Positions 1-60,483 of a stretch of DNA of 64,000 nt are shown here, piece after piece. Made by a program: the position numbers and the translations under genes. Positions within the stretch are counted from its first letter, which is position 1. Each line of letters starts with the position of its first letter. Below the pieces are notes generated by a model. The model was not told the origin of the DNA. It did not search any database and saw only the letters and a program-made list of their open reading frames with translations. Source of the DNA: Candidatus Bipolaricaulota bacterium (GTDB lineage Bacteria; Patescibacteriota; Patescibacteriia; UBA11705; DATKZF01); contig DATKZF010000002.1 of NCBI GenBank assembly GCA_035528115.1, positions 69,751 through 133,750 on the forward strand. Direction: 5' to 3'.

Positions 1-251
1 CGTCGCGCAGGACGCCATCAGAAACGTGACGCACGTGAACATTGACGCCATTCTCGCGAACCTCTTCATTTCGAATTCTCCCCCGCCGCTCGTTGCGACG
101 CGTGGAATGTTTCCGATTCTCATTCTCAGAATCTGGGAATCTCCCAAACTGTACTCGCTTCAGAGCGAAACGCTTACGGTTTGAGAGCCGAAAGGATTTA
201 CCTCTCGGCCGCTCCTCCTTGTTGATGTGATGTGATGCAGCTTCGCGGAAG

Positions 252-986
252 CTACTGGGACTTGCCCTTGTGCAGGTACAAGTTCCAATCGACCTTGCGC
301 TCGGCCGCGGCGGTCTCGGGAGCGTCTCCGCCCCCCATGACCGTCACGTTCGCGTCCTCGGCCTCGACGTTCACGGTCTTGTAGACCACGATCGTCTGCC
401 TACCGGCGGAAGGAATGTACTCCGGCCGCGGCAAGGGCATGGGCCGCGCGATGAGCTGCGTCTTCTGACGGGGACGCCGCGCGACCTGCGTGACCTTCAC
501 GCAGTCACTCTGACAGCCATCCGCCGTCGGCCGACACCGGAGCCGGTACCCTGGAAGGCACTGGCTCGGCGGGGCCGCGGTGAGCTGCACGGGTCGCTCG
601 CCGCAACCGTCGCCGAAGCATTTCTGCTCCAGCGCGTCGAGCCGCCGTCCGTGCTCCTCGATCTCCGGCTGGACGACGCCGATAGCGTCTGCCAGACGCC
701 CCACCTGGCTGGGCAGAACTTCCAACGAATGGTTGAAGTCCTGCCGCAAGGAATCGACATCGGCCATGTTCTGGGCAGCCAGCGCCGCCGTGTCTCCGAC
801 CACAGGAATCAATCCCGCAATCGAAGCGGCATTCTGGCCGCCCAGCGACCTTGCCTCCTCCGCCTTGACCCAGGCGGCGCCGCCGGTCTCGCCAACGGCA
901 GACACCCTCTGGCTGTTGTAGAACAAGTAGACCAGGACGGCGACCGAAGCCGCCGCCACCACAGCCGCCAGAATCTTTCGTCCCAT
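252..986 (-). CDS. Hypothetical membrane-anchored protein encoded in a GC-rich island. It has one N-terminal TM helix and a Cys-containing extracytoplasmic region
   Basis: ORF of 244 aa with N-terminal hydrophobic helix (ILAAVVAAASVAVLVYLF). Visibly GC-rich versus the flanks. AAGGAGG lies 7 nt upstream of the ATG (reverse complement of 987-1010). No recognisable family. Confidence 0.45.
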   Translation of the reverse strand: MGRKILAAVVAAASVAVLVYLFYNSQRVSAVGETGGAAWVKAEEARSLGGQNAASIAGLIPVVGDTAALAAQNMADVDSLRQDFNHSLEVLPSQVGRLADAIGVVQPEIEEHGRRLDALEQKCFGDGCGERPVQLTAAPPSQCLPGYRLRCRPTADGCQSDCVKVTQVARRPRQKTQLIARPMPLPRPEYIPSAGRQTIVVYKTVNVEAEDANVTVMGGGDAPETAAAERKVDWNLYLHKGKSQ

Positions 987-1228
987 GATGAATTCCTCCT
1001 TTCATGGGTTCGTAGGTTTCGTCCGTAAACTCGCCACACATCGCTTTATTCTTACCTCTAAAAATAAAACGATTTAAGGCGAGAAACCCCTTGTTTTAGC
1101 CACGATTCTGGCTATTTTATTTAACCGTTCAGTATAGCATGCTTTTAATTTTTTGTCAATACTTTAAACTCCCTTTTAAAAAACTCCAGGCGCGTTCATG
1201 GAACGCGCCTTTTAAGGTGAAAAAACTA

Positions 1229-2128
1229 CTAGATGATCATCGCCAGGAGAGCCCCGAGACCCATGGCGATGATGGAAAAGGCGATGACCTTCACCAGCAG
1301 GTCGCTGTCGCCGGAGCGATCATCGCCCTCCCCGGCCTGTCCGGCGGAGCCTTTCGGACCTTGCGGACCGACGGGACCCTGCGGACCTTCCGGACCGGCG
1401 AGTCCCTGCGGACCTTCCGGACCGACGGGTCCCTGCGGGCCTTCCGGACCGACGGGTCCCTGCGGGCCTCGGGGTCCTTCCAGACCCTGCGGGCCGGGCA
1501 CGGGTTCCGGCCTCCCCGAATCGTCTTCGACGATCGGCGGAGGCGCTTCGGGTTCTTCCGGCGGCTCCACCACACGGGTGGTGAGAGCCGCCGGATCCAC
1601 GACCGCGATGAGGCGGTGGCACCCGGGACAGATGAGCTCCTGCCCGGGCAAGGCCTGCTCCCGCGCGACCTCGATCTGCCGGTCGCAGGCCGCGCAGACG
1701 AGAGGAACGAACTCTTCGCCCTCCTCGTCGTCGCCGTCGCCACCATCCTCGTCATCGGTGGCGTCGTCGCCGTCGCCGTCGTCGTCGTCGGCTGCGTCGC
1801 CGTCGTCGTCGTTGTCCGGAGGCGGAGCATCCGCCCCCACCGGCATGTCCAAGCCGCAAACGTTGCACTGCGACGCGCCCGCGGGCACGGCCGCGCCGCA
1901 CTCGCACTTACGGCCGGAGGGCTCGGGTACGGACACGATCTCTCCTTTCTCGTTGATGCGAAATACCTGCCCGCACGTCTCGCAAATCCCCTCCGCGCCG
2001 GCGACAGCCGACTCGTCAGGGATCTCGCCCACCGCCCCGCAATCGGGGTTAGGACATTTGATCTCCATCTCTGTTTCCTTTCCCCAAATCCCATGGATTC
2101 GGGTTTTTTTATCATCCAAGTCCAACAC
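1229..2128 (-). CDS. Zinc-ribbon / collagen-like (G-P-X-G-P) repeat protein with acidic D/E tract and C-terminal TM anchor. Likely true start at 2068 (MEIKCPNP)
   Basis: Translation shows three CxxC...CxxC ribbons (CPNPDCG...CETCG; CECG...CNVCG; CAACD...CPGC). It also shows a long D/E/G-rich acidic stretch and about 12 tandem GP(E/Q)GP(Q/V) triplet repeats typical of collagen-like Gly-X-Y. The C-terminus is hydrophobic ([23 protein letters not shown]). Alternative-frame ORFs 1233..2156(+) and 1291..2151(-) are low-complexity artefacts of GC richness. An RBS-like GGAAAGGAAAC lies before the internal ATG at 2068. Confidence 0.6.
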
Positions 2129-2229
2129 GGAAAATCATAATATATTATCACATTAAGTAAATTCTGTCAATAGATAAAAGAACTCATTTCAATTAAAAAA
2201 AGCTATTTCCCTTGGGAAAATAGCCTTTG

Positions 2230-3663
2230 CTAGTAGTTCAACGCATTAACCTGATTGACGAGCGCTTCGAGCTGAGCCGAAATCCCATCAATCTTTTGCT
2301 CAGTCGACGGCGTCTGCCGCTCCACCTTCGCGGCCACCACAGCCTCCTTTGGGGGGGCAATGATTTTGTCCGCGGGGAGCGGCGAGAATTCGCACTGAAG
2401 CGCGGCCGAGGAGACCGATTCCAGCCGTTTTTGCGTCTCCTCGATTTGCCGAGAAAGCGCGGCGATCCGAGCCTCGAGACGAGCAAATTCTTCTCGCGAC
2501 CCATTTGAATCACCGGCCTTTTCGAGCGCCTTTTGCGCCCGCTTCAGCTGTTTGCCTTGCTCTTGCAGGGTCTCGCCTTGGGCTTTCATTTCTTTCGAAA
2601 TTCGAGCCAGTTTCTTGCTCATATCGCCTGCCGCGTATTGCCGAGCCTCCACAGCGGTGAGGCGTCTGCCGAGATTCCTGCCGAGCTTACGAAACGGTTC
2701 AGCCCATTTCTTCCCGGCCGCGGCAAGAACGGCCAGAGCCTTTTGCGTCGCGTTCTGGATTTCAAGCCGAGCCGCGGCCGCTTCCTTCAACGCCTGGTCG
2801 ACGGCCTGCTCCTTCTTGGCATACTTCTCCGAGAAAGAGCTCATGCCTTCAACCACGCGCATAACCTGCGGCAAGCTTTTTTCCAGCGCGCTCTGCGTGG
2901 CCTGACTTTTCTTGACGCTGATTTCAGCCTGCTTGCCGATGTCTCTGACCTCGATCAAAGACTTGTCGAGGTCTTGTCGCTTGATCGCGCTCGCGTCAAG
3001 CGCGGTAATCCTCCAACCCAGCTCAGAATAGTGCCTTTCCTGCAGGTAGAAAGCCACAATACCCGGGCTGCCAAGCACGACGGCGATGAGGATCGCCAGG
3101 GCTGGTCGCCAGTCATAGCTGACGCCACCATCAACGATCTTGTCCGGGTGGGATTCCACTCCGCCGGGCACAATATTATGCCAGTCATTCTCTGCCGGCA
3201 AAGCCCCCGACGGCGCGGCCGGCTGATCTTCAGCCGACTCTCCAGGAGGCTCAACAGTCTCTTCGTGTTGGAGAGCCGCCGCCGCAGGTGCCTCGGCATG
3301 AACCTCCACTACGAAATCCGCCGGCTGAGCATCCTGATGGATCAAGCCGTATTCAGCTATCGCAGCAGCCAGATCATCCGTGACGGACTCCTCATCATCG
3401 GTCTCAGACGCCGCGGCCGCGTCAGCGGACACCGGAACCAAGTCCCGATCCGTCGGATCCGGCGCTTGAGCAGGGCGACGCTGAACCGGTGTCGAAGTCG
3501 GCATCTGATCAAATGCCTCGAACGTCCCCTCTCCGTCAACCAAGCGTAGCATTATGCCGCAGTTGGGGCATGGTTCTTCATGCCCCTGATTCAGGTTTTC
3601 CACTTCAGCGGGTTTGACTTGCAAAGTCGCCTCGCAAATGGGGCACTTCCATGGCGTTTGCAT
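2230..3663 (-). CDS. N-terminal Zn-ribbon, central TM helix, C-terminal long coiled-coil protein (GC-rich island)
   Basis: The N-terminus has CPICE...CPNCG. A TM segment follows (ALAILIAVVLGSPGIVAFYL). About 280 aa of heptad-like K/E/A/Q-rich sequence complete the protein. GGAGG lies 5 nt upstream of the ATG. Composition is GC-rich like its two neighbours. Confidence 0.55.
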   Translation of the reverse strand: MQTPWKCPICEATLQVKPAEVENLNQGHEEPCPNCGIMLRLVDGEGTFEAFDQMPTSTPVQRRPAQAPDPTDRDLVPVSADAAAASETDDEESVTDDLAAAIAEYGLIHQDAQPADFVVEVHAEAPAAAALQHEETVEPPGESAEDQPAAPSGALPAENDWHNIVPGGVESHPDKIVDGGVSYDWRPALAILIAVVLGSPGIVAFYLQERHYSELGWRITALDASAIKRQDLDKSLIEVRDIGKQAEISVKKSQATQSALEKSLPQVMRVVEGMSSFSEKYAKKEQAVDQALKEAAAARLEIQNATQKALAVLAAAGKKWAEPFRKLGRNLGRRLTAVEARQYAAGDMSKKLARISKEMKAQGETLQEQGKQLKRAQKALEKAGDSNGSREEFARLEARIAALSRQIEETQKRLESVSSAALQCEFSPLPADKIIAPPKEAVVAAKVERQTPSTEQKIDGISAQLEALVNQVNALNY

Positions 3664-3807
3664 GATACCTCCAGAAAACGGTTGCGGGTTTGCTGATTTT
3701 CCGACATCTTAACTTAATACAAAAGCTAAATTTAATCAAGCACAACAATAAAAACACCGAGAGTCATCCAACTCTCGGGTTTTTAAATATATAATTTTTT
3801 TTAATGT

Positions 3808-4590
3808 TTATTGCGCGTTTTCTTGATGAGTTTTGGGCATAATATCGATTTCTTCTTCCGGATAATATGAATAAGTTTCGATTTCCGCTCGTTTTTTGGC
3901 GGCGGATTCCAAAGCCTCTTCCTCCTCAACATTTTCGATTATTTTAATCGGCCGTCTCTTTTTTTTGCCGCGACCGGTCGCGTTCGGCGAAAGAGCCACA
4001 TAAGAGATGCCGATAATGGCGCCGATCAATATTCCCAAAAACGCGTTCAACACGAAATTGGGCTTGACCGGATATCTCGAAACCAAAACATTATCAACGA
4101 TTTTAATACTGACATTGGAGGAGCCGATATACTCTTGGCCTTGCTTGGCCAAAACATCGGCCACGGCATTGGCCAATTCTCCCGCTTTGTATTGACTGCC
4201 GTCATAAACGATAATTTGCAAAATGCCCGTGCCTCTTTTTACCTGAGTTTCCACGGTTCTGGCCCATTCTTGTCGTCTTTTGTATTCCAAAGGATCAAAA
4301 GAACTTCTCGAGACATCATAGCCCGAATTCATGACTTTATCGAAAAAAGTCGAAGTATAAACCAATTGAGACAAACTGTCGGCCACTCTTTCCGCGGAAC
4401 GCGAAGCGCTGTAAATATCGTAATTCACGTCCCCCGTTTGAATAATCAAAAGACTGATTGAAGCCGAATATTTAAGAGGTTGAAATAAACTGAAAATCAA
4501 CGTTAACAACAACACAAAAGAAGTTATGAGAATGATTACCCCTTTTCTTTTTGAGACTTGAGATAAAATTAAAATTTCATTTGATTGCAT
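3808..4590 (-). CDS. Polysaccharide chain-length determinant (Wzz/YveK-like) protein
   Basis: Two TM helices (near the N- and C-terminus) flank a roughly 150-aa loop, with a charged C-tail. This topology and size are typical of the Wzz/CapA family. Assigned by architecture and weak motif similarity only. Confidence 0.45.
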   Translation of the reverse strand: MQSNEILILSQVSKRKGVIILITSFVLLLTLIFSLFQPLKYSASISLLIIQTGDVNYDIYSASRSAERVADSLSQLVYTSTFFDKVMNSGYDVSRSSFDPLEYKRRQEWARTVETQVKRGTGILQIIVYDGSQYKAGELANAVADVLAKQGQEYIGSSNVSIKIVDNVLVSRYPVKPNFVLNAFLGILIGAIIGISYVALSPNATGRGKKKRRPIKIIENVEEEEALESAAKKRAEIETYSYYPEEEIDIMPKTHQENAQ

Positions 4591-4640: not shown

Positions 4641-5771
4641 TTACTCTAAAATGACGGTTTTTTCAATATTCTCAACTCCTCGCAAAATTTTCATCACAAT
4701 CTCCTGCCCGGGCTTGTATGATTGAACCAATTTCGTCAAAGTATCGCTCGAAGTGATGGTTTCACCCTCGATTGAAATTATTATATCTCCCGGCAATAAA
4801 CCCGCTTTCTGAGCCGGACTTTGCGCCATAACGGCCGGCCACAAATCGGAAGCGAAAATTAAGGCGCCGTTTTTCACATCAGCATATTTGTCCCAGCCGA
4901 TTGATTCGCTCAAATCAATGAAATGAACGCCCAAAACCGGCCGAACTATTTTTTTCTCCGAAACGGCTTGCTTGATCACCATTTGAATATTATCGATGGC
5001 CAGAGCCGTGTTTTCGGAAGTGACAATGCCAAAAACCTGGCCGTCCAAATTAACCAAAGGCGCGCCAAGCCATTTCTTATCGAGCGTCTCAATCAATTTT
5101 ATTTCTTGATAATGAATTTCCGAAGAATGTATTAAGTCGCCCTTTTTCTCGGCGGAAGAAAAATATAAACGTTCTATGTTCGTCGGCAAAATATTATTTC
5201 CGGAAATAACCAAAGCCGTCTGGCCGCTGGATAAATATTCCCGACTTATCAAATTGACCACGGGCAAATCCTTGGCGTCAATTTTTATAAAACACGCCGT
5301 CGTGCCGGAATCGCAAACGGTCTCTTCGATCGAATAAACTTTTTTATCGAAAGAAACCGCCACTTCCTCGCCGCTTCCGCCCAAAACGCTTTTGTCCGTC
5401 AATATCCAACCGTCCGCGGTCATGATCGCGCCGACGCCCCGCGCGTCGTTTTCCAATAAAATATCATCGTACGAATTTGATTTTCTGCGAAACGCGTAAA
5501 AATCAACAATGGCCGGCCTGACGCTTTCAATGGTCGAATACACGGACAAATCTTTTTCGGACAAAATATCTTTTAATTTTTTATCCTGCTTGGCGGTCAA
5601 CTCGTCCAAACGCTGACTCAAAGTTTGAATTTTTTGTTCATCTGGAACTCCACCGGAAAGGAAAGAGTCCAGCCATAATTCCCCCAAGACTCCGGAAATG
5701 AAACCGAAAATCACGGACACGATTATCACGGACAAAATTTGCGCGTAAAACTTGGAAAAGAATTTTTTCAT
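4641..5771 (-). CDS. Membrane-anchored HtrA/DegP-like trypsin-fold protein with C-terminal PDZ domain. The catalytic Ser and His appear to be substituted
   Basis: N-terminal TM helix. The segment GAPLVNLDGQVFGIV aligns with the HtrA GNSGGPLVN..G.V.GI motif, but the Ser is missing. ILTDKSV sits where the His-containing IVTNNHV is expected. The C-terminal PDZ carries a GLLPGDIIISIEG motif. Confidence 0.55.
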   Translation of the reverse strand: MKKFFSKFYAQILSVIIVSVIFGFISGVLGELWLDSFLSGGVPDEQKIQTLSQRLDELTAKQDKKLKDILSEKDLSVYSTIESVRPAIVDFYAFRRKSNSYDDILLENDARGVGAIMTADGWILTDKSVLGGSGEEVAVSFDKKVYSIEETVCDSGTTACFIKIDAKDLPVVNLISREYLSSGQTALVISGNNILPTNIERLYFSSAEKKGDLIHSSEIHYQEIKLIETLDKKWLGAPLVNLDGQVFGIVTSENTALAIDNIQMVIKQAVSEKKIVRPVLGVHFIDLSESIGWDKYADVKNGALIFASDLWPAVMAQSPAQKAGLLPGDIIISIEGETITSSDTLTKLVQSYKPGQEIVMKILRGVENIEKTVILE

Positions 5772-8168: not shown

Positions 8169-8627
8169 TTGAATATGAAACCCGTCTATAATAAACAAGC
8201 GCATTTCGATTATGAAATCCTGGAGAAATTCGAGGCGGGTTTGAAATTGACGGGCGCGGAAGTAAAAGCGGTCAAAGCCGGGGGCATTAACTTAAAAGGT
8301 TCCTATGTCACGCTCAAACAACAACCCAAAACCGAGGTTTTTTTAATCAACGCTCACATTTCAAAATATAAACCGGCCGGCGAGCAACCGGAATACGACC
8401 CGACAGGGTCTCGCAAACTGCTTTTGCGCAAAGAAGAAATCAATAAATTAACGGGTATTTTACGGCAAAAAGGCTTGACATTCGTCCCTCTTCGGGTGTA
8501 TACTAAGCACAACCTCGTTAAATTGGAATTCGGCGTCGGCCGAGGCAAGAAACGATTCGAGAAAAAAGACAGCATCAAAAAAAGAGAGAATGATCGAAAA
8601 ATTGAACGAGCGATGAAGCAATATTAA
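8169..8627 (+). CDS. smpB: SsrA-binding protein SmpB
   Basis: 152 aa. NKQAHFDYEILEKFEAGLKLTGAEVKA...GSRKLLLRKEEINKL matches the conserved SmpB core. tmRNA lies immediately downstream. Confidence 0.9.
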   Translation: MNMKPVYNKQAHFDYEILEKFEAGLKLTGAEVKAVKAGGINLKGSYVTLKQQPKTEVFLINAHISKYKPAGEQPEYDPTGSRKLLLRKEEINKLTGILRQKGLTFVPLRVYTKHNLVKLEFGVGRGKKRFEKKDSIKKRENDRKIERAMKQY

Positions 8628-8663: not shown

Positions 8664-9046
8664 GGGGATGATCGGCTTCGACGGGAGTCCTGAAATCAAA
8701 AGCGCGAAATGAGCTGTCAGCCGCTCATTAAACTGCTGGCAAATCCAATAAGTGCAACAAATGTACTGGCGAAAGTCAAAAGCTTATTTCAAGCTCCGGC
8801 TTTTGCTCCCGTTCTTGCCTAAAAGTGAGAACCGTCCGCTTGCCGATACTCGATGAGCAAACCGGACGTCAATATCGAGTTAGGCCGTCGCCATGCCAAA
8901 AGCGCCGACTGAAATAAAACGGCTCGGCCCGCTCGGAGTTTCGTTTATCTTTAATCCGGCGGTCTTAAATGATAAGATAAACTATTTTCGTAGATGCTTT
9001 TTATTTCAACTTCCAGACGCGGGTTCGATTCCCGCCATCTCCACCA
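8664..9046 (+). ncRNA. ssrA: tmRNA (SsrA)
   Basis: The 5' end GGGGATGATCGGCTTCGACGGG matches the canonical tmRNA 5' acceptor/D-arm consensus (GGGG..G.TTCGACGGG). The 3' end ACGCGGGTTCGATTCCCGCCATCTCCACCA is a tRNA-like T-arm plus acceptor with encoded CCA. The 5' GGGGATG pairs with 3' CATCTCC. It sits directly after smpB. The tag-peptide reading frame was not confidently identified. Confidence 0.85.
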
Positions 9047-11188: not shown

Positions 11189-11265
11189 GGATCGGTGGTG
11201 TAGCTGGTTAACACGCCGCCCTGTCACGGCGGAGATCGCGGGTTCGAGTCCCGTCCGATCCGCCA
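11189..11265 (+). tRNA. tRNA-Asp (anticodon GTC), CCA encoded
   Basis: Cloverleaf read by hand. The acceptor is GGATCGG/CCGATCC, with D-stem GTGT/ACAC. The anticodon stem is CCGCC/GGCGG with loop CTGTCAC (U33, GTC, A37). The T-arm is GCGGG-TTCGAGT-CCCGT, the discriminator is G, and CCA follows. It is flanked by the complementary ATTCAGGCTG / CAGCCTGAAT leader-trailer pairing. Confidence 0.88.
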
Positions 11266-42298: not shown

Positions 42299-43012
42299 CT
42301 AGTACGGGTAGCAGGCGCCATCGTTGTCGCAGTACGTGCCGGTCGGACAGTCGTTGTCCGATCCGCAGGTGGCAGGCCGAGGCTCGGGCGCGCTCTGGTA
42401 ACAGAGCCCGTCCGAGGAGCAGAAGGTTCCGACCGGACAGTCGCTGGCCGACTGGCAGCCGGTCCGCGTGAGCGGGACACAGCTACCATCCGCGGCGCAG
42501 AAGTTGCCGACCGGGCAGTCGTAGTCCGAGATGCAACCGGCCTGCATCGCATAGCAGGCACCGTCAGCACCGCAGTAGAAACCGATATGACAGTCGGCAT
42601 CCACGCGGCAGCCTCCGACCGGACCGTCTTCGACCACGACCGCGACTTGCGAGACGCTGCAATAGCCGTCCCAGTCGCAGAACATGTCGGACCGGCAGTC
42701 CCAGTCGCTGGCACAGGGGTACAACCACTCACAGTAGTTGACCCCCGGGACAGCCATCGGCTGACAGTACATGTTGAACGGACAATCATCGTCCGTCCAA
42801 CAACCACCGTCTGTCGCGACCGCCTCGTCCACGTAGCCGGGCTCGCCGATGCAGGTGTTTCCCACATCGGTGCCGGTGCAGACCGTCCCGTACGGACAGT
42901 CGTAGTCGCTGTAGCACTGATCGTCGATCGGCTCGTGGTAGCCGACCGAGCCGAAGCAGCCGTTGAAGAAAGCGCACAGGACGCACAACGCCGCAAACAT
43001 CATGCTTTTCAT
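42299..43012 (-). CDS. Secreted cysteine-rich repeat protein with about 8 tandem DxDCPxGxxC(x)2-4DG(x)C modules; GC-rich
   Basis: The start is at the internal ATG at 43012, preceded by GGGGAG. The signal peptide is MKSMMFAALCVLCAFFNGCFG. Repeats such as SDYDCPYGTVCTG, TDDDCPFNMYCQP, SDWDCRSDMFCDWDGYC, VDADCHIGFYCGADGAC, SDYDCPVGNFCAADGSC, SASDCPVGTFCSSDGLC and SDNDCPTGTYCDNDGAC are read directly. Confidence 0.6.
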   Translation of the reverse strand: MKSMMFAALCVLCAFFNGCFGSVGYHEPIDDQCYSDYDCPYGTVCTGTDVGNTCIGEPGYVDEAVATDGGCWTDDDCPFNMYCQPMAVPGVNYCEWLYPCASDWDCRSDMFCDWDGYCSVSQVAVVVEDGPVGGCRVDADCHIGFYCGADGACYAMQAGCISDYDCPVGNFCAADGSCVPLTRTGCQSASDCPVGTFCSSDGLCYQSAPEPRPATCGSDNDCPTGTYCDNDGACYPY

Positions 43013-43196
43013 GATCTCTCCCCTTTTCTTTTCCCGCCTTGGCGGGATTTTGAAGTTCTTGCAATTCCAGTAAATCATTATATTATATCATATTTAATCA
43101 AAAAAGTCAATGATTGTAGTCTTTTTTTATCTAATTTTGGATAAAAAAAGCGAAATGCAAACATTCCGCAAACAAATAGAAATGGATAATGTATTA

Positions 43197-54141: not shown

Positions 54142-55236
54142 CTAGTCGACGTCTGCCGCGGGGAATGCCCCGGACAAGAAGTTCTCGGACTCGGCCGCCT
54201 TGGCCAGGTCCTGCTCGATCAACTTCGCCCAGAGCTCGACGACCGTGAGCGGGAGCTCGAAGATGAACCGGTCGCCGCGCGCGACCATGATCTCCTCGAG
54301 CAGGCCGAGATCATCCGAATTGCCCAGCAATCCGACGGCTGTGACCGGGGTCGGGTCGCCGAAGACCGCCTTGATCTTCTCGCCGCGAATGAAGACGCCC
54401 GGAGCCACTTCGTAGCCGGGCCAGGTGTCCGTCGCCGCGGTCTGGTAGAACTGCTCGACGACCGCCCAGAAACCCTCTTCCTCGCGGAAGTACTGCTCAA
54501 CCGTCTTGAAGAAACGGCTGAGCAATCCCGGCATGAAGCGCTGGAGCAGCTGCTCCTTCGAGCAGAGCGCCTCGGACGCGGCTCCGAGCATGTGCACGTC
54601 GAGGGGGAGCAAGTGCGCGAGCTCGGGGTACTTCTCGAACACCGGCCGGAACCCGGCCGCGAGTTCGGAAGCGCTCAAGCCGAACGCCTTGTCGCCGAGC
54701 GGACCGGACTGCCGCACTTCCGTTTCCTTGAGGAAGAAGCATGGCCCGTTCAGAACCTCGAAGATGGGGTGGCCGAGCCACTCCTCCCCTGCCTTCTCGT
54801 GCAGGTAGCCGGACAGCCGAGGCAGGCCGGCCTTGATGAAGTCGGTGATCGCCGCCTCCACGCGGGCGAAGAACGCCCGCGTGCCGCCGTCGTAATGCGC
54901 TAGCAGCTGCCGGCGCCGCCACGCCTTGCGCACGTCCACTGCATGCGTTCCGCGCTCCTGCGGATCCTGCTCGCTCGAGACCTCCAGCATGCGTAGGGGA
55001 GTAGCCGCCGCCTTCTTCTCCGCCTTGGCCGCGCTGGGCGGCACGTCGATCTGGAACACCTTCGGCTCTGACTTCGGCCGAGCCTCTGGAGGAACATCGG
55101 TCTGAAAGCCGTTGCCCGCCGGTGCCGCCGCCGAGTCGAGCCGGACAGTATTCGGTCCCGGCGTGAAATGCACCGCCGGATCCACGGTCGTGCCCGGCTC
55201 CGAAAAAGAAACGCCCTTGCCCTTCTTGTCCGTCAT
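54142..55236 (-). CDS. GC-rich orphan hypothetical protein (364 aa), Ala/Pro-rich N-terminal region
   Basis: AGGAGG lies 6 nt upstream of the ATG. It is much more GC-rich than the flanks. No family recognised. Confidence 0.45.
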   Translation of the reverse strand: MTDKKGKGVSFSEPGTTVDPAVHFTPGPNTVRLDSAAAPAGNGFQTDVPPEARPKSEPKVFQIDVPPSAAKAEKKAAATPLRMLEVSSEQDPQERGTHAVDVRKAWRRRQLLAHYDGGTRAFFARVEAAITDFIKAGLPRLSGYLHEKAGEEWLGHPIFEVLNGPCFFLKETEVRQSGPLGDKAFGLSASELAAGFRPVFEKYPELAHLLPLDVHMLGAASEALCSKEQLLQRFMPGLLSRFFKTVEQYFREEEGFWAVVEQFYQTAATDTWPGYEVAPGVFIRGEKIKAVFGDPTPVTAVGLLGNSDDLGLLEEIMVARGDRFIFELPLTVVELWAKLIEQDLAKAAESENFLSGAFPAADVD

Positions 55237-56012: not shown

Positions 56013-57032
56013 TTATAATTGAAAAAAATCTTTAAGTATTGGGACAAATGAGTATTTTTTTACTCTATCAACTAATTCATGTTCTATATTTTTATTGTTA
56101 CAATCTTTTATATAATGACTAATAAGATAAATAGCTTCTTTACTAGTTGTGTAAAGAAATCTTTCTGGAAAAAAATCAGGGTAACACAAATTATTAGGTA
56201 ATACCGGGATACATCCGCATGCAACAGCCTTCATGACTGCATAACCAAAATTCTCTTGTTTTGAACAACTTAAAACAATACGTGATTGAGCAAGTGTTTG
56301 AATATGCTCAGTTGAAGATTGCTCCGCAATAAATATTATATTTTTATATCGTTGAAGCATTTTAAAATATTTATTTTTTCTCATAATATTCATGGGCTGC
56401 GGGAAAGTTACCACGAACCCAACAGCAGGCAACTTTGATACGATGCAACAAAATTGCTCAATACCTTTATCGTCATCGAGCCTATGTGGAAATATTACAT
56501 CATATTTTATTTTATGTGATAAAAGACATTTCCTAAAAGCATCCATTCCCCATGGTGAAACCTTTATCTTTTTGCAAAAATCCTGAGGACACTCTTCAGC
56601 AAGAAACCTTGATGGCACATAAATCCTATCATAAATACTAGCCCAAGCGAATTCTGTTTTTTTTAACCACGGCCAAGAATATAAATCATTCGGCAAAAAA
56701 GAACCTCCATGCAACAATGCGCCCAATCGACAAATAATTCCTTGCTGAGTATAATAATATTTCAATAGATCAATGCCGGGATTAAAAAAATCCAAAAATA
56801 AAATTCGGTCAACTTTCCCTAATGCAATAAGTTTTTCAATGAGTTTAAATTGTCCAGTAATATAATCTGAGTCATCCAATATTCCTCCTTTAATGCAATT
56901 ATCAAGTGGTTTAATATATCCAACCATCGTTGCCTTTATACCAATATGTTTAATGGATAATTTCAATCCACGCACAATATCTTCAAATGAAGTTCCTAAA
57001 TAGTAAGGTGGGATAGCGATAATATTCTTCAT
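56013..57032 (-). CDS. Glycosyltransferase, GT-B fold (GT4-like)
   Basis: The C-terminal ENFGYAVMKAVACGCIPV matches the E-x7-E / ExFG nucleotide-sugar binding motif of GT4 enzymes. 339 aa. Confidence 0.65.
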   Translation of the reverse strand: MKNIIAIPPYYLGTSFEDIVRGLKLSIKHIGIKATMVGYIKPLDNCIKGGILDDSDYITGQFKLIEKLIALGKVDRILFLDFFNPGIDLLKYYYTQQGIICRLGALLHGGSFLPNDLYSWPWLKKTEFAWASIYDRIYVPSRFLAEECPQDFCKKIKVSPWGMDAFRKCLLSHKIKYDVIFPHRLDDDKGIEQFCCIVSKLPAVGFVVTFPQPMNIMRKNKYFKMLQRYKNIIFIAEQSSTEHIQTLAQSRIVLSCSKQENFGYAVMKAVACGCIPVLPNNLCYPDFFPERFLYTTSKEAIYLISHYIKDCNNKNIEHELVDRVKKYSFVPILKDFFQL

Positions 57033-57040
57033 AATATATT

Positions 57041-58108
57041 CTAAGAATACCTAAGAATATCCGCGGTATTAGCTAACACGTCTTTCGTCAAAATAATATC
57101 ATGCTGTTGGACCTGCGACAATGGCACGTCCTCTCTATATTCTCCTTTTTCCTTTCTTAATTCATTCATTAATAATGTTGGAATAGTAGCCGCTGTCATC
57201 CTCACGTTGAGTTCTAAGACTGATATCTTCTGGGTCTCCGATTCAACCATGAAATCAACACCAAAAAAGCCTTCATATCCTTCAAGGAAAATATTTATTT
57301 TACTTAGCACATCACGTAACTGTCTTAAAATTATGTCATCTAAAAATTCCAATGGCAATATTTTAGATCCTACAAAATATTTATTTTCCGCGATAAGTTG
57401 TTCTGAAAATCCAAAAATAATGGTGTCTCCCGATTCTCTATATCGCACACATTGTATGCTATGAGGTATTCCTAACGCGAGAGCTTCCCAATACCATTCA
57501 TCAGAAGTCTTTGAAAAAAGATTTCTAAAATTTAAATCACATTTTATTTCCGAGCTCAAAAACACCGTATACCCCCCGGATCCAAATCTTCTTTTAAGAA
57601 AACCTGGCTTATGAATGCACTCAAAATCATCCAACTCTTTCACATTATTAATTTTCTTCCATTCCGGAGTATAACTCTTTAATACATCCTTTTGAGATAA
57701 TTTATCATTATATTTTTTAAATTCCGAATAATTGTAATTAATGGATAGTTTGTTTTCCTTAGCTAATGCATCTGCCTTAGGATGAGGTATTGATACCCAG
57801 AGAGAAGAAATTTCATTCTTAGTTATTATGTCATCTTTTACTCTCTCAAATACCGACACTCTTGGATCCATGGCTTTTCTTACCGGCAATATGTTATTAC
57901 CATGATTATATTCAATACCTCCAAAATCATCATTTACTATCACATATTGCCCATCCAATATCCATGGTAAAAGATTTTCATACTTCCACATGGCCGGGAT
58001 TTCGTATAACATAGATTCGCTGATAGCACGAAAATCTGACAGATAAAGCGTCCGTTTATTGCAAAGAAAAGGAATTTCTGATGGAATTAACTGTTTTGTT
58101 AGAATCAT
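57041..58108 (-). CDS. ATP-grasp domain ligase
   Basis: LKRRFGSGGYTVF (the Gly-rich ATP loop) and GVDFMV...ELNVRMT (C-terminal Mg/ATP site) are typical of ATP-grasp carboxylate-amine ligases. Confidence 0.55.
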   Translation of the reverse strand: MILTKQLIPSEIPFLCNKRTLYLSDFRAISESMLYEIPAMWKYENLLPWILDGQYVIVNDDFGGIEYNHGNNILPVRKAMDPRVSVFERVKDDIITKNEISSLWVSIPHPKADALAKENKLSINYNYSEFKKYNDKLSQKDVLKSYTPEWKKINNVKELDDFECIHKPGFLKRRFGSGGYTVFLSSEIKCDLNFRNLFSKTSDEWYWEALALGIPHSIQCVRYRESGDTIIFGFSEQLIAENKYFVGSKILPLEFLDDIILRQLRDVLSKINIFLEGYEGFFGVDFMVESETQKISVLELNVRMTAATIPTLLMNELRKEKGEYREDVPLSQVQQHDIILTKDVLANTADILRYS

Positions 58109-60063
58109 AAATAATGTATATAAAATTTTTTAAAGTTTATTTGTTTACCGAGCCAGTCTATATCAGGATCAATAGTCCTGAATATAAATAAATCAGAAGA
58201 TGAACTATACTCCGACGAAGACCTATCAATTGCAAGACTGTCGAGAAAACGATCAGCTCTTTTTCTCTCACTGAAATGCATTGGTAATTTATACTGACTG
58301 AAATTCCTTCTTATTTCAATCAAATACACCCCTGCGCGAGAAAGGATCTGTTGCAATTTCAACAAATTTTTCCCTATCATCGTTTGATTTAAAATAACAT
58401 AAAATTCTTTTACATTGTTATTCTTTACAAGCATCCTAAGGCCAGCAAAAATAAATGCCAAAGCACCATATATAGTATACGGCGGATCAGTAATAAATGT
58501 CTGAACTTCCGGGAAACCATCCGCCTTAATTATCTTCCTAATGTCAAATTTTATAACTTTAAATCGTGGAGAGGCCTTTTTAATAATTTTTGTTATATTA
58601 TCGTCTTTTTCTATAATAACAGGGTAAGCCCAAAATTCATTAATAAATTCTAAACTTACCAAGTCATCATCTCCTATTATGCCAAACTTTAAATATTCAG
58701 TAAAAGGGTAGCGTTCTTTAAATAAATCAAAACGTCGTTTACGTGACGCAAAATCACAAGGGAATTGATTTAAATCACAATTTGGAACAAAAGATGGATT
58801 CTCTATTAATTCAAAAAAATCTTTTTTTGTAAAATGAAAATTGAATATTTTTTTCACCTTACCGTTCTTTTCAACCTTGACTATTTCATTCTTTATTCCC
58901 ACATCAATAAGAACGCCTATATTGTCAAAATCCGCTGAACTATTCTTAATAAACTCATCAACATTATTACTGTTTTGTAAATTCCTCATTAAACAAGCAA
59001 AATCCATCTTTTCAATCATGTTATTTTTTCGCCAAGATGAAACTGTTTTCCTATCAGACAATTGTATATCTAAGGGTATCAGCCTGATATAATCCTCATA
59101 TGCTTCTTCTATTCTAAAATCATAATGAATAGGCTTTAATTTTTCTAAAACCGTCCTCCTCTGCATTGGTTTTCCAGAAAATGTGTTTATCACGTGGAAC
59201 GAAAAATATCCTCTTTCAATTAATGCTAAAAAGTATTCAACAAGATTGCTCTGTTGATTTATTCCTGCACGGTGAGACACATGAATCACTAAAAAATCAT
59301 TCATAAGCATAAAACGATATCCTAATTCATATAATCTGAACATCAAAAAATCATCTTCAAATCCATAACCCGAATAATTCGGAAATCCTCCCAGTTTTTT
59401 AAAAATATCCTTTTTGCAGAATCCGAAATTAGCGATAAATGTTGACTGCTTAATATTTTGAAAAAATGGATCACGAAACAAAGCAGGAGGAAGTCCGGCA
59501 TTATGTTTTAAAAACCCAATTTCTCCGTTCTCCATTTTATTAAGTATCTTTTTTGTATTTTTGGGAAACCATCCCTGCCTTGTCCACAATCGTTTTGCGC
59601 CGTATCCATAATCGAAATTCCTCGAAAGACAAAAAATTTTCTGAAAAGCGCTATTATCTAAAATTATTGTATCATCATCAACAAAAACAAGCAGATTGCT
59701 ACTTGCCCTCTCAGCGCCGATATTCCTTGCTTTACCATAACCATATGATTGCTTGTTATTTATAAGCGAAAAGGCTATGGGCGTTGGCCTTCTTTTGTTC
59801 AATTCACGAACCGTGTCTCGTATTAATGGGATGTTATTTTTTTTATGGTGACTATTTTCAATTAAAATTACCTCAAAATATTTAAATTTTTGTGCAAAAA
59901 TTGCAGTCAAACAATGAAGGATACAATTTCCTTTCGCTTTCCCTGGGTCACAGGAAAGGATAATACAAGAAAGTTTAATTATTTTTTTTCCCATACAGAT
60001 CATAACAAGCACTTTCAATACAATCCACGTAAACTCATATAATAAAGAATAGCGAACTTTCAT
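58105..60063 (-). CDS. Fusion protein: N-terminal GT2 glycosyltransferase plus C-terminal GDDD/DPPY-motif domain (DUF43/BpsA-like aminopropyltransferase- or amino-methyltransferase-like)
   Basis: GT2 motifs: CIILSCDPG, GYGKARNIG, VFVDDDT (DxD) and GFEDDF. The C-terminal roughly 250 aa carry KFGIIGDDDLVSLEF and FITDPPYTIYG. The ATGA start overlaps the stop of the ATP-grasp gene. Confidence 0.6.
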   Translation of the reverse strand: MKVRYSLLYEFTWIVLKVLVMICMGKKIIKLSCIILSCDPGKAKGNCILHCLTAIFAQKFKYFEVILIENSHHKKNNIPLIRDTVRELNKRRPTPIAFSLINNKQSYGYGKARNIGAERASSNLLVFVDDDTIILDNSAFQKIFCLSRNFDYGYGAKRLWTRQGWFPKNTKKILNKMENGEIGFLKHNAGLPPALFRDPFFQNIKQSTFIANFGFCKKDIFKKLGGFPNYSGYGFEDDFLMFRLYELGYRFMLMNDFLVIHVSHRAGINQQSNLVEYFLALIERGYFSFHVINTFSGKPMQRRTVLEKLKPIHYDFRIEEAYEDYIRLIPLDIQLSDRKTVSSWRKNNMIEKMDFACLMRNLQNSNNVDEFIKNSSADFDNIGVLIDVGIKNEIVKVEKNGKVKKIFNFHFTKKDFFELIENPSFVPNCDLNQFPCDFASRKRRFDLFKERYPFTEYLKFGIIGDDDLVSLEFINEFWAYPVIIEKDDNITKIIKKASPRFKVIKFDIRKIIKADGFPEVQTFITDPPYTIYGALAFIFAGLRMLVKNNNVKEFYVILNQTMIGKNLLKLQQILSRAGVYLIEIRRNFSQYKLPMHFSERKRADRFLDSLAIDRSSSEYSSSSDLFIFRTIDPDIDWLGKQINFKKFYIHYL

Positions 60064-60066
60064 GAA

Positions 60067-60384: not shown

Positions 60385-60483
60385 ATGACAAGTAATGTGT
60401 GTATGCTCGCCCCATTGTTTTTCCCAATTATCTACTGGACTAAAATTATATATTTGGATTGTCTTATTTGGACATGATATAGA

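What the first reader, a model, noticed from the sequence alone, without database searches (positions are those of the whole stretch)
1229..2128. Bacterial collagen-like (Gly-X-Y) repeat protein combined with three zinc ribbons, a poly-acidic tract and a C-terminal tail anchor
About 12 consecutive GP(E/Q)GP(Q/V) triplets form an uninterrupted run of roughly 75 residues, long enough to form a collagen triple helix.

The acidic (D/E/G) tract and three CxxC pairs precede it. The only TM segment is at the extreme C-terminus.

This domain order is unusual. Collagen-like bacterial proteins (Scl, BclA, phage fibres) are normally N-terminally secreted.

In the other two frames the same DNA gives long ORFs, which are artefacts of GC richness. 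Only this frame has structured motifs.
Basis: seen in the sequence. Interest (0 to 1): 0.6.

Follow-up and report, generated by a model that had tools for sequence, protein, structure and literature searches.

The report
Tail-anchored collagen-like zinc-ribbon membrane protein
This is a real but one-of-a-kind gene in a tiny uncultivated (Patescibacteria-type) bacterium; it joins three zinc-binding modules, a strongly acidic stretch and a short collagen-like rod to a membrane anchor at the very end of the protein, so the collagen rod probably sits inside the cell, not on its surface.

Summary
Window 1229-2068 (- strand; the ORF extends to a GTG at 2128) encodes a 279-aa protein. It has three Cys4 zinc ribbons and a 45-residue D/E/G tract (net charge -24). 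It has an uninterrupted Gly-X-Y run of 19 triplets (57 residues, not about 75; Pfam Collagen 34.5 bits, above the 27.2 cut-off). Its single TM helix ends at the last residue. The gene has its own promoter, SD-like sequence and terminator.

No full-length relative exists in 5.8 billion clustered proteins or 1.8 billion representatives. All hits are to the collagen segment or to generic zinc ribbons.

Synteny changes the picture. In two related Patescibacteria species the same slot holds a small tail-anchored protein without collagen. That slot lies downstream of the conserved HtrA-like and Wzz-like genes. It sits between a Zn-ribbon/TM/coiled-coil protein and an N-anchored Cys-rich protein. So the gene is the fast-evolving tail-anchored member of a clade-specific, GC-enriched envelope gene cluster.

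Best reading (inferred): an N-in, tail-anchored homotrimer whose collagen stalk holds nine zinc ribbons off the cytoplasmic face of the membrane. Function is unknown. It is a new variant of bacterial collagen-like proteins, of moderate interest.

The parts
1229..2068 (-). Gene B coding sequence, 279 aa plus stop (stop codon 1229-1231). This is the tail-anchored collagen-like zinc-ribbon protein.
   Evidence: ORF. NCBI annotates 279 aa as HUT22097.1 / VMX18_01660. JGI calls the 299-aa form. GC1/2/3 are 0.79/0.51/0.78.
2069..2128 (-). Probable 5' UTR. It is the part of the mechanical ORF that runs from GTG 2128. It contains an SD-like purine tract at 2074-2085.
   Evidence: ggggaaaggaaa lies upstream of ATG 2068, while nothing SD-like lies upstream of GTG 2128.
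2142..2170 (-). Sigma-70-like promoter, TTGACA-17-TAATAT with a TG extension.
   Evidence: 10 of 12 matches
1931..2068 (-). Zinc ribbon 1 (residues 1-46; C5, C10, C29, C32).
   Evidence: Cys positions. Sub-threshold full-length match to Pfam Zn_ribbon_4 (E=0.027). AF2 strands with pLDDT 64-73.
1841..1930 (-). Zinc ribbon 2 (residues 47-76; C55, C57, C68, C71; atypical CxC knuckle).
   Evidence: Sub-threshold matches to DZR and Zn_Ribbon_1. AF2 pLDDT is below 40, so this is the least certain of the three.
1706..1840 (-). Poly-acidic D/E/G tract (residues 77-121, net charge -24).
   Evidence: TRF reports a 3-nt periodic array at 1725-1816.
1589..1705 (-). Zinc ribbon 3 (residues 122-160; C125, C128, C147, C150).
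   Evidence: This is the only part of the N-terminal 190 residues with database relatives, which are generic repeated zinc ribbons (best E=1e-7).
1496..1588 (-). Pro/Glu-rich linker (residues 161-191).
   Evidence: sequence
1325..1495 (-). Collagen-like Gly-X-Y run of 19 triplets (residues 192-248), built from 27-nt (9-aa) tandem units. Units 2 and 3 are identical at the DNA level.
   Evidence: Pfam PF01391, 34.5 bits above GA 27.2. TRF period 27, 4.3 copies, 92% matches. Codon table.
1295..1324 (-). Acidic juxtamembrane linker (residues 249-258, [10 protein letters not shown]).
1232..1294 (-). C-terminal transmembrane tail anchor (residues 259-279, [21 protein letters not shown]). It has an AxxxGxxxA small-residue motif, and no residue follows it.
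   Evidence: KD maximum 2.65. AF2 helix 255-278. It is the only credible single C-terminal-TM ORF in the window.
1178..1210 (-). Intrinsic terminator (10-bp stem with 7 GC pairs, then a T-run).
2230..3663 (-). Gene C, the upstream cluster partner: N-terminal zinc ribbon, acidic linker, TM (about 189-207) and a C-terminal coiled coil of about 270 aa. It has its own terminator at 2198-2228.
   Evidence: It has no homologue but itself. Positional and architectural counterparts are in L002, L004 and L005.
252..986 (-). Gene A, the downstream cluster partner: N-terminal TM anchor, helical region and a 6-Cys, Pro-rich region. Its promoter is at 1131-1159.
   Evidence: Positional counterparts are in L002 and L004.
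1..69 (-). First 23 codons of the next cluster gene, a lipoprotein with a C-terminal TM. It runs off the window start.
3808..4590 (-). Gene D, a Wzz/GNVR-like two-TM protein. It is the last gene of the conserved, normal-GC backbone before the GC-rich cluster.
   Evidence: It is conserved next to the HtrA-like gene in L002, L004, L005, L006, L009 and L010.

Best explanation
Window 1229-2068 (- strand) is a real, independently transcribed gene of a small-genome Patescibacteria-type bacterium.

Its product has no signal peptide, and its only hydrophobic segment forms the last 21 residues. It is therefore most likely a tail-anchored membrane protein, inserted after translation, with the whole N-terminal part in the cytoplasm (inferred).

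The 19 Pro-rich Gly-X-Y triplets lie only 10 residues before the anchor. They would zip three chains into a short collagen triple helix (a rod of roughly 16 nm), nucleated at the membrane end, where the small-xxx-small TM helices bring the chains together (inferred).

This stalk and the Pro/Glu linker would hold three copies each of three Cys4 zinc ribbons and a polyanionic tract away from the inner face of the membrane. The assembly would act as a membrane-tethered docking or spacer scaffold (inferred; the ligand is unknown).

The gene is the tail-anchored member of a clade-specific, fast-evolving, GC-enriched envelope gene cluster (order and topology classes shown). The cluster runs: Zn-ribbon/TM/coiled-coil protein, tail-anchored protein, N-anchored Cys-rich protein, doubly anchored lipoprotein, then secreted Cys-repeat proteins.

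In one relative the equivalent tail-anchored protein carries a coiled coil where this one carries collagen. The rod type therefore looks interchangeable, and the collagen and zinc-ribbon parts look like lineage-specific additions made by 27-nt repeat expansion and module shuffling (inferred).
For: Gene reality:
- It has its own promoter, SD-like tract and terminator.
- Both JGI and NCBI call this frame.
- Pfam Collagen scores above its gathering score.
- All 12 Cys are paired, and the 19-triplet run is never reached in 100,000 shuffles.
- Alternative frames give no family hit.

Topology:
- There is a single TM at 259-279 and no N-terminal hydrophobic segment.
- No C-terminal sorting-signal or sortase-type family appears in NCBIfam at E<=0.1.
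- In E. coli, natural tail-anchored proteins (DjlC, Flk) need SRP, FtsY, DnaK and YidC for optimal targeting and insertion. Their insertion is reported as Sec-independent (PMC6794478).

Collagen:
- Pro is at X in 14 of 19 triplets, and Y is mostly Q/E/V/R.
- Collagen folds by C-terminal nucleation and zips towards the N-terminus (PMC11923368).

Cluster:
- Homologues of the flanking HtrA-like gene (55-56% identity) lie in the same L20-L35-IF3-SmpB...AI-2E-DUF5656-HtrA-Wzz order in L002/L008 and L004/L007. They are followed by the same series of topology classes.
- The slot of gene B holds tail-anchored proteins of 133 aa (L002) and 219 aa (L004). The latter has a strong heptad pattern (0 of 500 shuffles) and sub-threshold Syntaxin/Use1 hits.
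- The MopE-type gene of the cluster is clearly homologous between genomes (E=1e-33).
- Cluster genes are GC-elevated in all three genomes.
Against: - No significant sequence similarity links genes A, B or C to their positional counterparts (blastp E>0.03). Equivalence rests on synteny and topology in only three genomes.
- Trimerisation, zinc binding, membrane insertion and orientation are all untested. The AF2 single-sequence model is poor (mean pLDDT 56.7).
- The TM N-flank is acidic (DDRSGDSD), which does not fit the positive-inside rule well.
- Nineteen unhydroxylated triplets is short for a stable helix.
- The gene is known from one population only (identical sequence on 3 contigs), so there is no evidence of purifying selection.
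- No ligand or phenotype can be proposed from data.
Confidence: 0.45

Rival explanations
1. The protein is a surface fibre or adhesin. Its N-terminal part, including the collagen rod, would be exported by an unrecognised route and displayed on the cell surface from a C-terminal anchor. It would then work like Scl, Lcl or BclA fibres, perhaps in attaching this probable episymbiont to its host.
For: - Well-studied bacterial collagen-like proteins (Scl, Lcl, BclA, phage fibres) are surface, spore-coat or virion components. The best family-level hits are Scl2/SclB, Lcl and phage tail fibres.
- The neighbouring cluster genes encode secreted or surface proteins.
- The protein is very acidic (net charge -44).
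- The TM N-flank is acidic, which would favour translocation.
Against: - There is no signal peptide or Tat motif.
- 258 residues, including three Cys4 ribbons, would have to cross the membrane N-terminus first.
- The same ribbon type sits N-terminal to the only TM, without any leader, in the cluster's C-family proteins, so it must be cytoplasmic there.
- Hits to adhesin families cover only the collagen segment, at 27-35 bits against cut-offs of 325-500.
- The relatives' tail-anchored counterparts have basic N-flanks.
Confidence: 0.15
2. The gene is an evolutionarily young mosaic with no settled function. A short ancestral tail-anchored gene in a hypervariable locus picked up zinc-ribbon modules, a slippage-generated acidic tract and a recently expanded 27-nt collagen-coding repeat. 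It may be expressed, but it does nothing specific.
For: - It has no full-length homologue anywhere.
- Two 27-nt units are identical at the DNA level, and the array matches at 92%.
- The acidic tract is a 3-nt periodic array.
- The counterparts in relatives differ completely in their N-terminal parts.
- The flanking cluster genes A and C are also without detectable homologues.
Against: - The 840-nt reading frame is intact and carries proper expression signals.
- Cys4 geometry is perfect in all three ribbons.
- The Gly register is uninterrupted, with stabilising Pro at X and Q/E/V/R at Y. Drift alone would not be expected to produce this.
Confidence: 0.2
3. The gene is foreign DNA: a fragment of a phage collagen-like tail fibre, or a gene recently transferred from a GC-rich donor such as Myxococcota or Actinobacteria. 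That would explain the 69% GC in a 43% GC genome.
For: - GC3 is 0.78, against about 0.5 in backbone genes.
- PHROG tail-fibre families hit with E down to 1e-15.
- Neighbouring genes carry Myxo-type Cys repeats and MopE motifs.
Against: - PHROG hits cover only the Gly-X-Y segment (residues about 170-250), with one weak exception (phrog_5602, E=0.009, on zinc ribbon 1) and one envelope that starts at residue 46.
- No relative was found in IMG/VR.
- No other collagen-like run was seen in the window, and the flanking genes examined are not phage-like.
- The cluster is syntenic and also GC-elevated in two related species, so it is vertically inherited in the clade.
- The intergenic spacers are AT-rich, like the rest of the genome's spacers.
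Confidence: 0.05
4. The call is an artefact. The true coding frame would be one of the other long ORFs over the same DNA, or none of them.
For: Four ORFs of at least 286 aa overlap here. The in-phase antisense frame has the same GC1/2/3 pattern. JGI demonstrably mis-called strands elsewhere in this island.
Against: - Only the - frame has a Pfam hit above threshold, paired Cys4 sets, a TM helix, an SD-like tract with ATG, a promoter and a terminator.
- It is co-oriented with all neighbouring genes.
- The alternatives translate to low-complexity S/P/R/A strings without family hits.
Confidence: 0.03

Closest known systems
Streptococcal Scl1/Scl2 (SclA/SclB) and Legionella Lcl collagen-like adhesins
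   Same: All have an uninterrupted, Pro-rich, unhydroxylated Gly-X-Y domain expected to form a homotrimeric rod. A C-terminal hydrophobic segment holds the protein at the membrane or wall. Best NCBIfam hits: SclB E=1.1e-8, Lcl E=1.3e-7.
   Different: Scl and Lcl have an N-terminal signal peptide and a globular trimerisation (V) domain. They have far longer collagen domains, and Scl has LPXTG sorting followed by a basic tail. Here there is no leader, no V domain and no LPXTG, and the N-terminal part is zinc ribbons. Scores are 27-35 bits against cut-offs of 325-500.
Bacillus BclA-type exosporium proteins and phage collagen-like tail fibres / minor tail proteins
   Same: They carry short, variable-length Gly-X-Y arrays made of tandem DNA repeats and folded inside the cytoplasm without hydroxyproline (general knowledge). 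PHROG tail-fibre hits reach E=1e-15.
   Different: Those proteins have a C-terminal globular trimerising or receptor-binding domain, no TM anchor and no zinc ribbons. Here similarity is essentially limited to the repeat, and there is no phage context.
Bacterial tail-anchored inner-membrane proteins (E. coli DjlC, Flk, T6SS TssL/SciP)
   Same: Single TM at the extreme C-terminus, no signal sequence, functional domain in the cytoplasm, post-translational insertion (PMC6794478, PMC3426401).
   Different: No sequence relationship. None of these examples is known to carry a collagen-like rod or a zinc-ribbon array.
Animal membrane collagens and collagenous receptors (collagens XIII/XVII/XXIII/XXV, MARCO, SR-A)
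   Same: A single-pass membrane anchor is directly coupled to a collagen triple helix, so the membrane end helps bring three chains together (general knowledge).
   Different: Those are type II proteins: the anchor is N-terminal and the collagen is extracellular and hydroxylated. Here the anchor is C-terminal and the collagen is predicted to be cytoplasmic.
Membrane proteins with N-terminal cytoplasmic zinc ribbons (Pfam Zn_ribbon_4/5, DZR; e.g. Myxococcus GltJ, from memory)
   Same: CPxC...CxxC ribbons without a leader, followed by low-complexity acidic or Pro-rich linkers and a single TM. Neighbour gene C and its counterparts have exactly this design.
   Different: Gene B places the TM at the very end, inserts a collagen rod, and scores below every Pfam zinc-ribbon threshold (E=0.027-0.06).
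Positional counterparts in related Patescibacteria (L002 16849-17250, 133 aa; L004 15197-15856, 219 aa)
   Same: Same slot in the same gene order. All are tail-anchored with TMs rich in small residues. L004's protein also has a rod-forming (heptad) region before the anchor.
   Different: They have no collagen, no zinc ribbons and no acidic tract. Sequence similarity is not significant.

Membership tests
Pfam Collagen (PF01391) / bacterial collagen-like proteins in the broad sense | Uninterrupted Gly-X-Y repeat scoring above the Pfam gathering threshold | tested here: met
   34.5 bits against GA 27.2, E=1.7e-8, residues 211-267 of the 299-aa form. 19 triplets.
Pfam Collagen (PF01391) / bacterial collagen-like proteins in the broad sense | Actual formation of a trimeric triple helix | not testable with these tools
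   Only a monomer AF2 model is available. This needs CD, trypsin resistance or SEC-MALS.
LPXTG-anchored Scl1/Scl2 adhesins (NF038329/NF038330) | Full-length score above the NCBIfam cut-off | tested here: not met
   34.5 and 26.7 bits against cut-offs of 325 and 400.
LPXTG-anchored Scl1/Scl2 adhesins (NF038329/NF038330) | N-terminal signal peptide, plus an LPXTG motif followed by a basic tail | tested here: not met
   No N-terminal hydrophobic segment. The sequence ends ...GALLAMII, with no LPXTG and no K/R tail.
BclA-type / C1q-like collagen proteins | Globular trimerising domain C-terminal to the collagen region | tested here: not met
   Only a 10-residue linker and a 21-residue TM follow the repeat. 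No such Pfam domain was found.
Phage collagen-like tail fibre / minor tail proteins | Similarity outside the Gly-X-Y segment and a phage genomic context | tested here: not met
   PHROG matches fall on the Gly-X-Y segment, with two marginal exceptions: phrog_5602 (E=0.009, residues 3-42) and the phrog_366 envelope (46-248). No IMG/VR relative. The flanking genes are cellular.
Tail-anchored membrane proteins | Single TM domain at the extreme C-terminus and no N-terminal signal sequence | tested here: met
   KD scan gives one segment only, at 255-279 of 279. AF2 helix at 255-278.
Tail-anchored membrane proteins | Post-translational insertion with the N-terminal domain cytoplasmic | not testable with these tools
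   Inferred only. Needs topology reporters or protease shaving.
Cys4 zinc ribbons (Pfam Zn_ribbon_4, DZR, Zn_Ribbon_1) | Two Cys knuckles (CxxC-type) separated by about 10-25 residues | tested here: met
   Three sets. 12 of 12 Cys are paired, and 2 of 100,000 shuffles match this.
Cys4 zinc ribbons (Pfam Zn_ribbon_4, DZR, Zn_Ribbon_1) | Score above the family gathering threshold | tested here: not met
   13.7-15.1 bits against cut-offs of 25-30. The exhaustive search finds only generic ribbon repeats, best E=1e-7 on ribbon 3.
C-terminal sorting signals (LPXTG, PEP-CTERM, GlyGly-CTERM, MYXO-CTERM and similar) | Signature motif, then a TM helix, then a basic cluster, on a protein that has a signal peptide | tested here: not met
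   No NCBIfam sorting-domain hit at E<=0.1. No basic tail and no leader.
Clade-specific envelope gene cluster of this Patescibacteria lineage (defined here) | Same gene order and membrane-topology classes downstream of HtrA-like and Wzz-like genes | tested here: met
   Seen in L002/L008, L004/L007 and, in part, L005. The MopE-type member is homologous at E=1e-33.
Clade-specific envelope gene cluster of this Patescibacteria lineage (defined here) | Detectable sequence homology of gene B to the tail-anchored protein in the same slot | tested here: inconclusive
   No significant blastp hit. Only the TM anchors align, with A268, L274 and A276 invariant.

The most novel reading that the evidence does not exclude
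A collagen triple helix is used inside a bacterial cell as a membrane-tethered stalk. On this reading, tail-anchored proteins occupying the same slot of a conserved Patescibacteria envelope gene cluster use interchangeable rod modules, a coiled coil in one species and collagen here. The rod holds a cytoplasmic head (here nine zinc ribbons plus a polyanionic tract) at a set distance under the membrane. This would be, to my knowledge, the first cytoplasm-facing, tail-anchored collagen. It would also be a natural example of coiled-coil-to-collagen rod replacement.
Probability: 0.3. Interest if true: 0.6.

Novelty: new variant of a known kind. Interest (0 to 1): 0.4.

Why it matters
Bacterial collagen-like proteins are known as surface fibres, spore-coat filaments and phage fibres. 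A tail-anchored version predicted to face the cytoplasm and fused to zinc ribbons would widen what the collagen fold is used for.

It would also offer a compact, naturally membrane-nucleated triple helix for protein engineering: 57 residues, with the anchor 10 residues away.

The context matters as well. The gene marks a fast-evolving, GC-enriched, clade-specific cluster of envelope proteins in an ultra-small bacterium. Such a locus is a plausible place to look for host-interaction machinery of these largely uncultivated organisms.

The practical weight is limited, because the gene is known from a single population and nothing about its function can yet be tested.

Tried and rejected
- **Full-length homologue search.** It found 4323 hits, all through the collagen segment (at most 46% coverage) except the protein itself. 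Useless for family assignment.
- **Exhaustive HMMER search with the non-collagen N-terminal 190 aa against 1.8 billion representatives.** Seven weak hits, six to generic repeated zinc ribbons and one to an acidic low-complexity tract. No family.
- **Locus scans for relatives of the N-terminal part.** Metagenome and viral contigs gave nothing. A first genome scan with the single HtrA-like sequence also failed. The alignment-based repeat worked.
- **Gene C homologue search.** It found only itself.
- **PDB sequence search of the N-terminal part.** Nothing below E=0.1.
- **AF2 single-sequence model.** Mean pLDDT 56.7, too poor for a fold search, so none was run.
- **PADLOC.** No defence-system match for A, B or D. 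The hits to C are coiled-coil noise.
- **Paralogue search within the window and L001.** None found.
- **Recent horizontal transfer or a phage origin as the explanation for the GC-rich island.** Rejected after finding the syntenic, also GC-elevated cluster in relatives.
- **Codon-position GC as a frame test.** It cannot separate the sense frame from the in-phase antisense frame.
- **Literature searches for collagen-like plus zinc ribbon, or plus tail-anchored, in bacteria.** No relevant paper.
Full report
**What is in the sequence.**
The window averages about 43% GC, but its first 3.7 kb are 53-63% GC. At finer scale the GC-rich stretches are three minus-strand coding regions: A 252-986, B 1229-2128 and C 2230-3663. 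They are separated by AT-rich spacers of 37-41% GC. The flagged ORF, 1229..2128 (-), 299 aa, exists exactly as described.

The likely start is the ATG at 2068, giving 279 aa. It follows an SD-like ggggaaaggaaa tract, while the GTG at 2128 has none. NCBI annotates the 279-aa form (HUT22097.1, VMX18_01660) and JGI the 299-aa form. A sigma-70-like promoter (TTGACA-17-TAATAT, 2170..2142) and a strong intrinsic terminator (1210..1188 plus a T-run) bracket the gene. Gene A has its own promoter (1159..1131). A terminator-like site (2228..2198) directly follows gene C. The three genes therefore look like separate transcription units.

**Anatomy of the 279-aa protein.**
- Zinc ribbon 1: C5-x4-C10 ... 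C29-x2-C32.
- Zinc ribbon 2: C55-x-C57 ... C68-x2-C71.
- A 45-residue D/E/G tract (residues 77-121, net charge -24).
- Zinc ribbon 3: C125-x2-C128 ... C147-x2-C150.
- A Pro/Glu linker (residues 161-191).
- An uninterrupted Gly-X-Y run of 19 triplets (residues 192-248).
- A 10-residue acidic linker.
- A hydrophobic helix, [21 protein letters not shown], which forms the last 21 residues.

The whole protein has net charge -44.

**Is it more than chance?**
- Pfam Collagen scores 34.5 bits, above the gathering score of 27.2 (E=1.7e-8).
- None of 100,000 residue shuffles reaches 19 triplets (maximum 8).
- All 12 Cys have a partner within five residues. The shuffle mean is 4.0, and only 2 of 100,000 shuffles match the observed value.
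- The collagen-coding DNA is a 27-nt tandem array (4.3 copies, 92% matches). Units 2 and 3 are identical at the DNA level, which indicates recent repeat expansion.
- The acidic tract is also a 3-nt periodic array.

**Which frame is real?**
Four ORFs of at least 286 aa overlap here. GC1/2/3 is 0.77/0.50/0.76 for the proposed frame, but 0.76/0.50/0.77 for the in-phase antisense frame.

The strand is settled by other evidence. The expression signals lie on the minus strand, and the gene is co-oriented with all its neighbours. The Pfam score and the Cys geometry also fit only this frame. The alternative frames translate to low-complexity strings. They have no Pfam hit except a sub-threshold Collagen echo (18.7 bits) in the antisense frame.

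**Relatives.**
The full-length search returned the protein itself. That is a cluster of three members, identical apart from how the first codon is read or where the start is placed, on contigs of 138, 151 and 763 kb. All other hits share only the Gly-X-Y segment. Of the 119 best such hits, none combines CxxC ribbons with a C-terminal TM, and 21 have N-terminal hydrophobic leaders.

An exhaustive HMMER search with the non-collagen N-terminal 190 residues against 1.84 billion representatives gave only seven weak hits. Six are generic repeated zinc ribbons matching mostly ribbon 3, and one is an acidic low-complexity tract (best E=1e-7). Scans of metagenome and viral contigs found nothing. NCBIfam hits (SclB, Lcl, SclA) cover only the repeat, at 27-35 bits against cut-offs of 325-500. 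PHROG tail-fibre hits also fall almost entirely on the repeat. The PDB sequence search gave nothing below E=0.1, and PADLOC found nothing. The AF2 single-sequence model is weak (mean pLDDT 56.7). It does model the C-terminal helix (255-278) and beta-hairpin elements in ribbons 1 and 3.

**Context changes the picture.**
Proteins of the window are named by NCBI as a MAG 'Candidatus Bipolaricaulota bacterium', with a 763-kb contig. However, the closest relatives of the flanking HtrA-like protease (window 4641-5771) are Patescibacteria MAGs at 55-60% identity. More distant relatives are Uhrbacteria and Magasanikiibacteriota.

In two related species the backbone order L20-L35-IF3-SmpB...AI-2E transporter-DUF5656-HtrA-like-Wzz-like is conserved. 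These species are represented by L002 (with L003 and L008) and by L004 (with L007). Downstream of that backbone comes the same series of topology classes as in the window and its extension L001:
1. A protein with 2-10 N-terminal zinc ribbons, an acidic linker, one TM and coiled coil. This is the gene C analogue (L002 1146 aa, L004 611 aa, L005 821 aa).
2. A small protein whose only TM is at the extreme C-terminus. This is the slot of gene B (L002 133 aa, L004 219 aa).
3. An N-terminally anchored protein with a helical region and a Cys cluster (the gene A analogue).
4. A lipoprotein with a C-terminal TM. Its first 23 codons are window 69..1.
5. Secreted MopE/Myxo-type Cys-repeat proteins, homologous between genomes at E=1e-33.

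L002 and L004 also carry an opposite-strand lipoprotein gene (357 and 336 aa) between the Wzz-like gene and this series. That gene is absent from the window and from L005.

The relatives' C-family proteins are significantly similar to one another (E=5e-6 to 3e-5). The window's A, B and C are not significantly similar to their counterparts (E>0.03). Equivalence of gene B therefore rests on position and topology, plus a weakly conserved TM rich in small residues.

The L004 counterpart has a strong heptad pattern (0 of 500 shuffles) and sub-threshold hits to tail-anchored coiled-coil families such as Syntaxin and Use1. The L002 counterpart is a short basic/acidic protein without such a pattern. 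The cluster is absent after the Wzz-like gene in the Magasanikiibacteriota locus.

The cluster genes are GC-elevated in all three genomes: 0.43-0.49 against 0.29-0.36 in L002, up to 0.64 in L004, and 0.59-0.69 against about 0.42 here. The GC-rich 'island' is therefore a vertically inherited, fast-evolving locus and not a recent insertion.

**How it most likely works.**
Shown:
- The gene is real and has its own expression signals.
- The protein has one TM at the extreme C-terminus and no leader.
- It has a bona fide collagen-type repeat 10 residues before that TM.
- It has three Cys4 sets and a polyanionic tract.
- It lies in a conserved cluster of envelope proteins, in a slot that holds tail-anchored proteins.

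Inferred:
- Insertion would be post-translational and N-in, as for the E. coli tail-anchored proteins DjlC and Flk. Those need SRP, FtsY, DnaK and YidC for optimal insertion and are reported to be Sec-independent (PMC6794478).
- The same ribbon type in the C-family lies hundreds of residues upstream of the only TM and has no leader. It must therefore be cytoplasmic, which supports a cytoplasmic location for B's ribbons.
- Collagen folds by C-terminal nucleation and zips towards the N-terminus (PMC11923368). Three AxxxGxxxA-type TM helices in the membrane would supply that nucleus. The result would be a rod of about 16 nm (19 triplets at about 0.29 nm per residue, textbook value).
- Pro at X in 14 of 19 triplets and Q/E/V/R at Y are, from memory of host-guest peptide data, among the more stabilising choices without hydroxyproline.
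- The product would be a trimeric, membrane-tethered stalk presenting nine zinc ribbons and three acidic tracts. That is a docking or spacer scaffold on the cytoplasmic face, possibly working with the cytoplasmic ribbon and acidic parts of gene C. The ligand and the cellular role are unknown.

**Rivals.**
- A surface fibre or adhesin exported by an unknown route (0.15). This fits what is known of bacterial collagens and the secreted neighbours. It conflicts with the missing leader and the ribbon logic above.
- A young, drifting mosaic without settled function (0.20). This fits the singleton status and the fresh repeats. It fits poorly with the flawless Cys4 geometry and Gly register.
- Phage or foreign origin (0.05). 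Contradicted by synteny.
- A wrong-frame artefact (0.03).

**Comparison with known systems.**
The protein works like a bacterial collagen-like protein in its rod and like a tail-anchored protein in its anchoring. It is not a member of the Scl, Lcl, BclA or phage-fibre families, because their defining features were tested and not met. It mirrors animal membrane collagens but with the opposite polarity. I found no paper describing collagen-like repeats combined with zinc ribbons or with a tail anchor in bacteria.

**Verdict.**
The gene is a new variant of a known kind, embedded in a previously undescribed clade-specific envelope gene cluster. Interest is moderate (0.4). The architecture is unusual, and a cytoplasmic tail-anchored collagen would surprise specialists. 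However, the gene is a singleton from one uncultivated population, and every mechanistic step is inferred.

Noticed in passing
window 1-3663, continuing beyond the window start (L001 8500-20900): The coding regions of a run of at least 8 genes are 59-69% GC (GC3 0.65-0.86) in a genome of about 43% GC, while the spacers between them stay AT-rich (26-41% GC). The syntenic cluster is also GC-elevated in two related species. This is therefore a property of the locus, not a recent transfer. The cause is unexplained; recombination or biased gene conversion, or amino-acid bias towards C/G/D/A/P, are possibilities.
   Followed up: partly
L001 16788-20900 (outside the window, beyond position 1): JGI calls a 2439-aa gene on one strand. 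The in-phase opposite frame instead starts with a lipoprotein signal (MKARFWFLVALVALLLAGCG) and continues for more than 1360 aa as 'CGDGxCxxxETxxxCPxDCG' repeats of about 21 aa (17% Cys). The public call looks like an antisense mis-annotation of a giant Cys-repeat surface lipoprotein.
   Followed up: partly
window 1-69 (-) / L001 12060-12623: This is the start of a lipoprotein that also has a C-terminal TM, with analogues in L002 and L004. JGI instead annotates a 121-aa ORF on the opposite strand here, probably another wrong-strand call in GC-rich DNA.
   Followed up: partly
window 42299-43078 (-): A single GC-rich gene (GC3 0.81) lies between the housekeeping genes gatB and miaA. It has a signal peptide plus DxDCPxGxxC repeats (Pfam Dickkopf_N 38 bits, DUF7107; NCBIfam Myxo_Cys_RPT 24.9 bits against a cut-off of 25).
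   Followed up: partly
window 54142-55236 (-) and 62345-63952 (-): Two further GC-rich outlier genes. The first is a 364-aa protein with no family hit (GC3 0.86). The second is a 535-aa protein with repeated DNDCDGxTDE MopE-type motifs (GC3 0.69).
   Followed up: partly
window 56013-60852 (-): A low-GC block (32-36% GC, GC3 0.23-0.33) of five co-oriented genes. This is a second kind of compositional outlier in the same window. The gene functions were not examined.
   Followed up: no
window 8664-9046 (+) and 11189-11265 (+): tmRNA (128.6 bits; tag peptide ATNVLAKVKSLFQAPAFAPVLA) lies next to smpB (window 8169-8627). tRNA-Asp(GTC) lies further on.
   Followed up: no
window 2094-2104 (-) and about 1000-1010 (-): The 5' leaders of genes B and A share a CGAAYCCATG motif about 15-35 nt upstream of their start codons. 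This could be chance or a shared regulatory or ancestral element.
   Followed up: no
start regions across the window (e.g. 986, 3663, 4590 and 55236 compared with 25484, 40598 and 44117): The GC-rich cluster genes A and C, the GC-rich gene 54142-55236 and the Wzz-like gene D have strong GGAGG-type Shine-Dalgarno sequences. The sampled housekeeping genes (gyrB, gatB, miaA, HtrA-like) have none.
   Followed up: no
whole window (taxonomic label): NCBI names the source MAG 'Candidatus Bipolaricaulota bacterium'. However, the closest syntenic relatives are labelled Patescibacteria group, and more distant ones Uhrbacteria and Magasanikiibacteriota. One relative contig is labelled 'uncultured Gammaproteobacteria'. 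The CPR-typical DUF5656 and the 763-kb contig also point to Patescibacteria, so the public labels look unreliable.
   Followed up: partly
L002 12065-13138 (-) and L004 12079-13089 (-): The relatives carry an opposite-strand lipoprotein gene of 336-357 aa between the Wzz-like gene and the Zn-ribbon protein. It is absent from the window (144-nt spacer at 3664-3807) and from L005.
   Followed up: no
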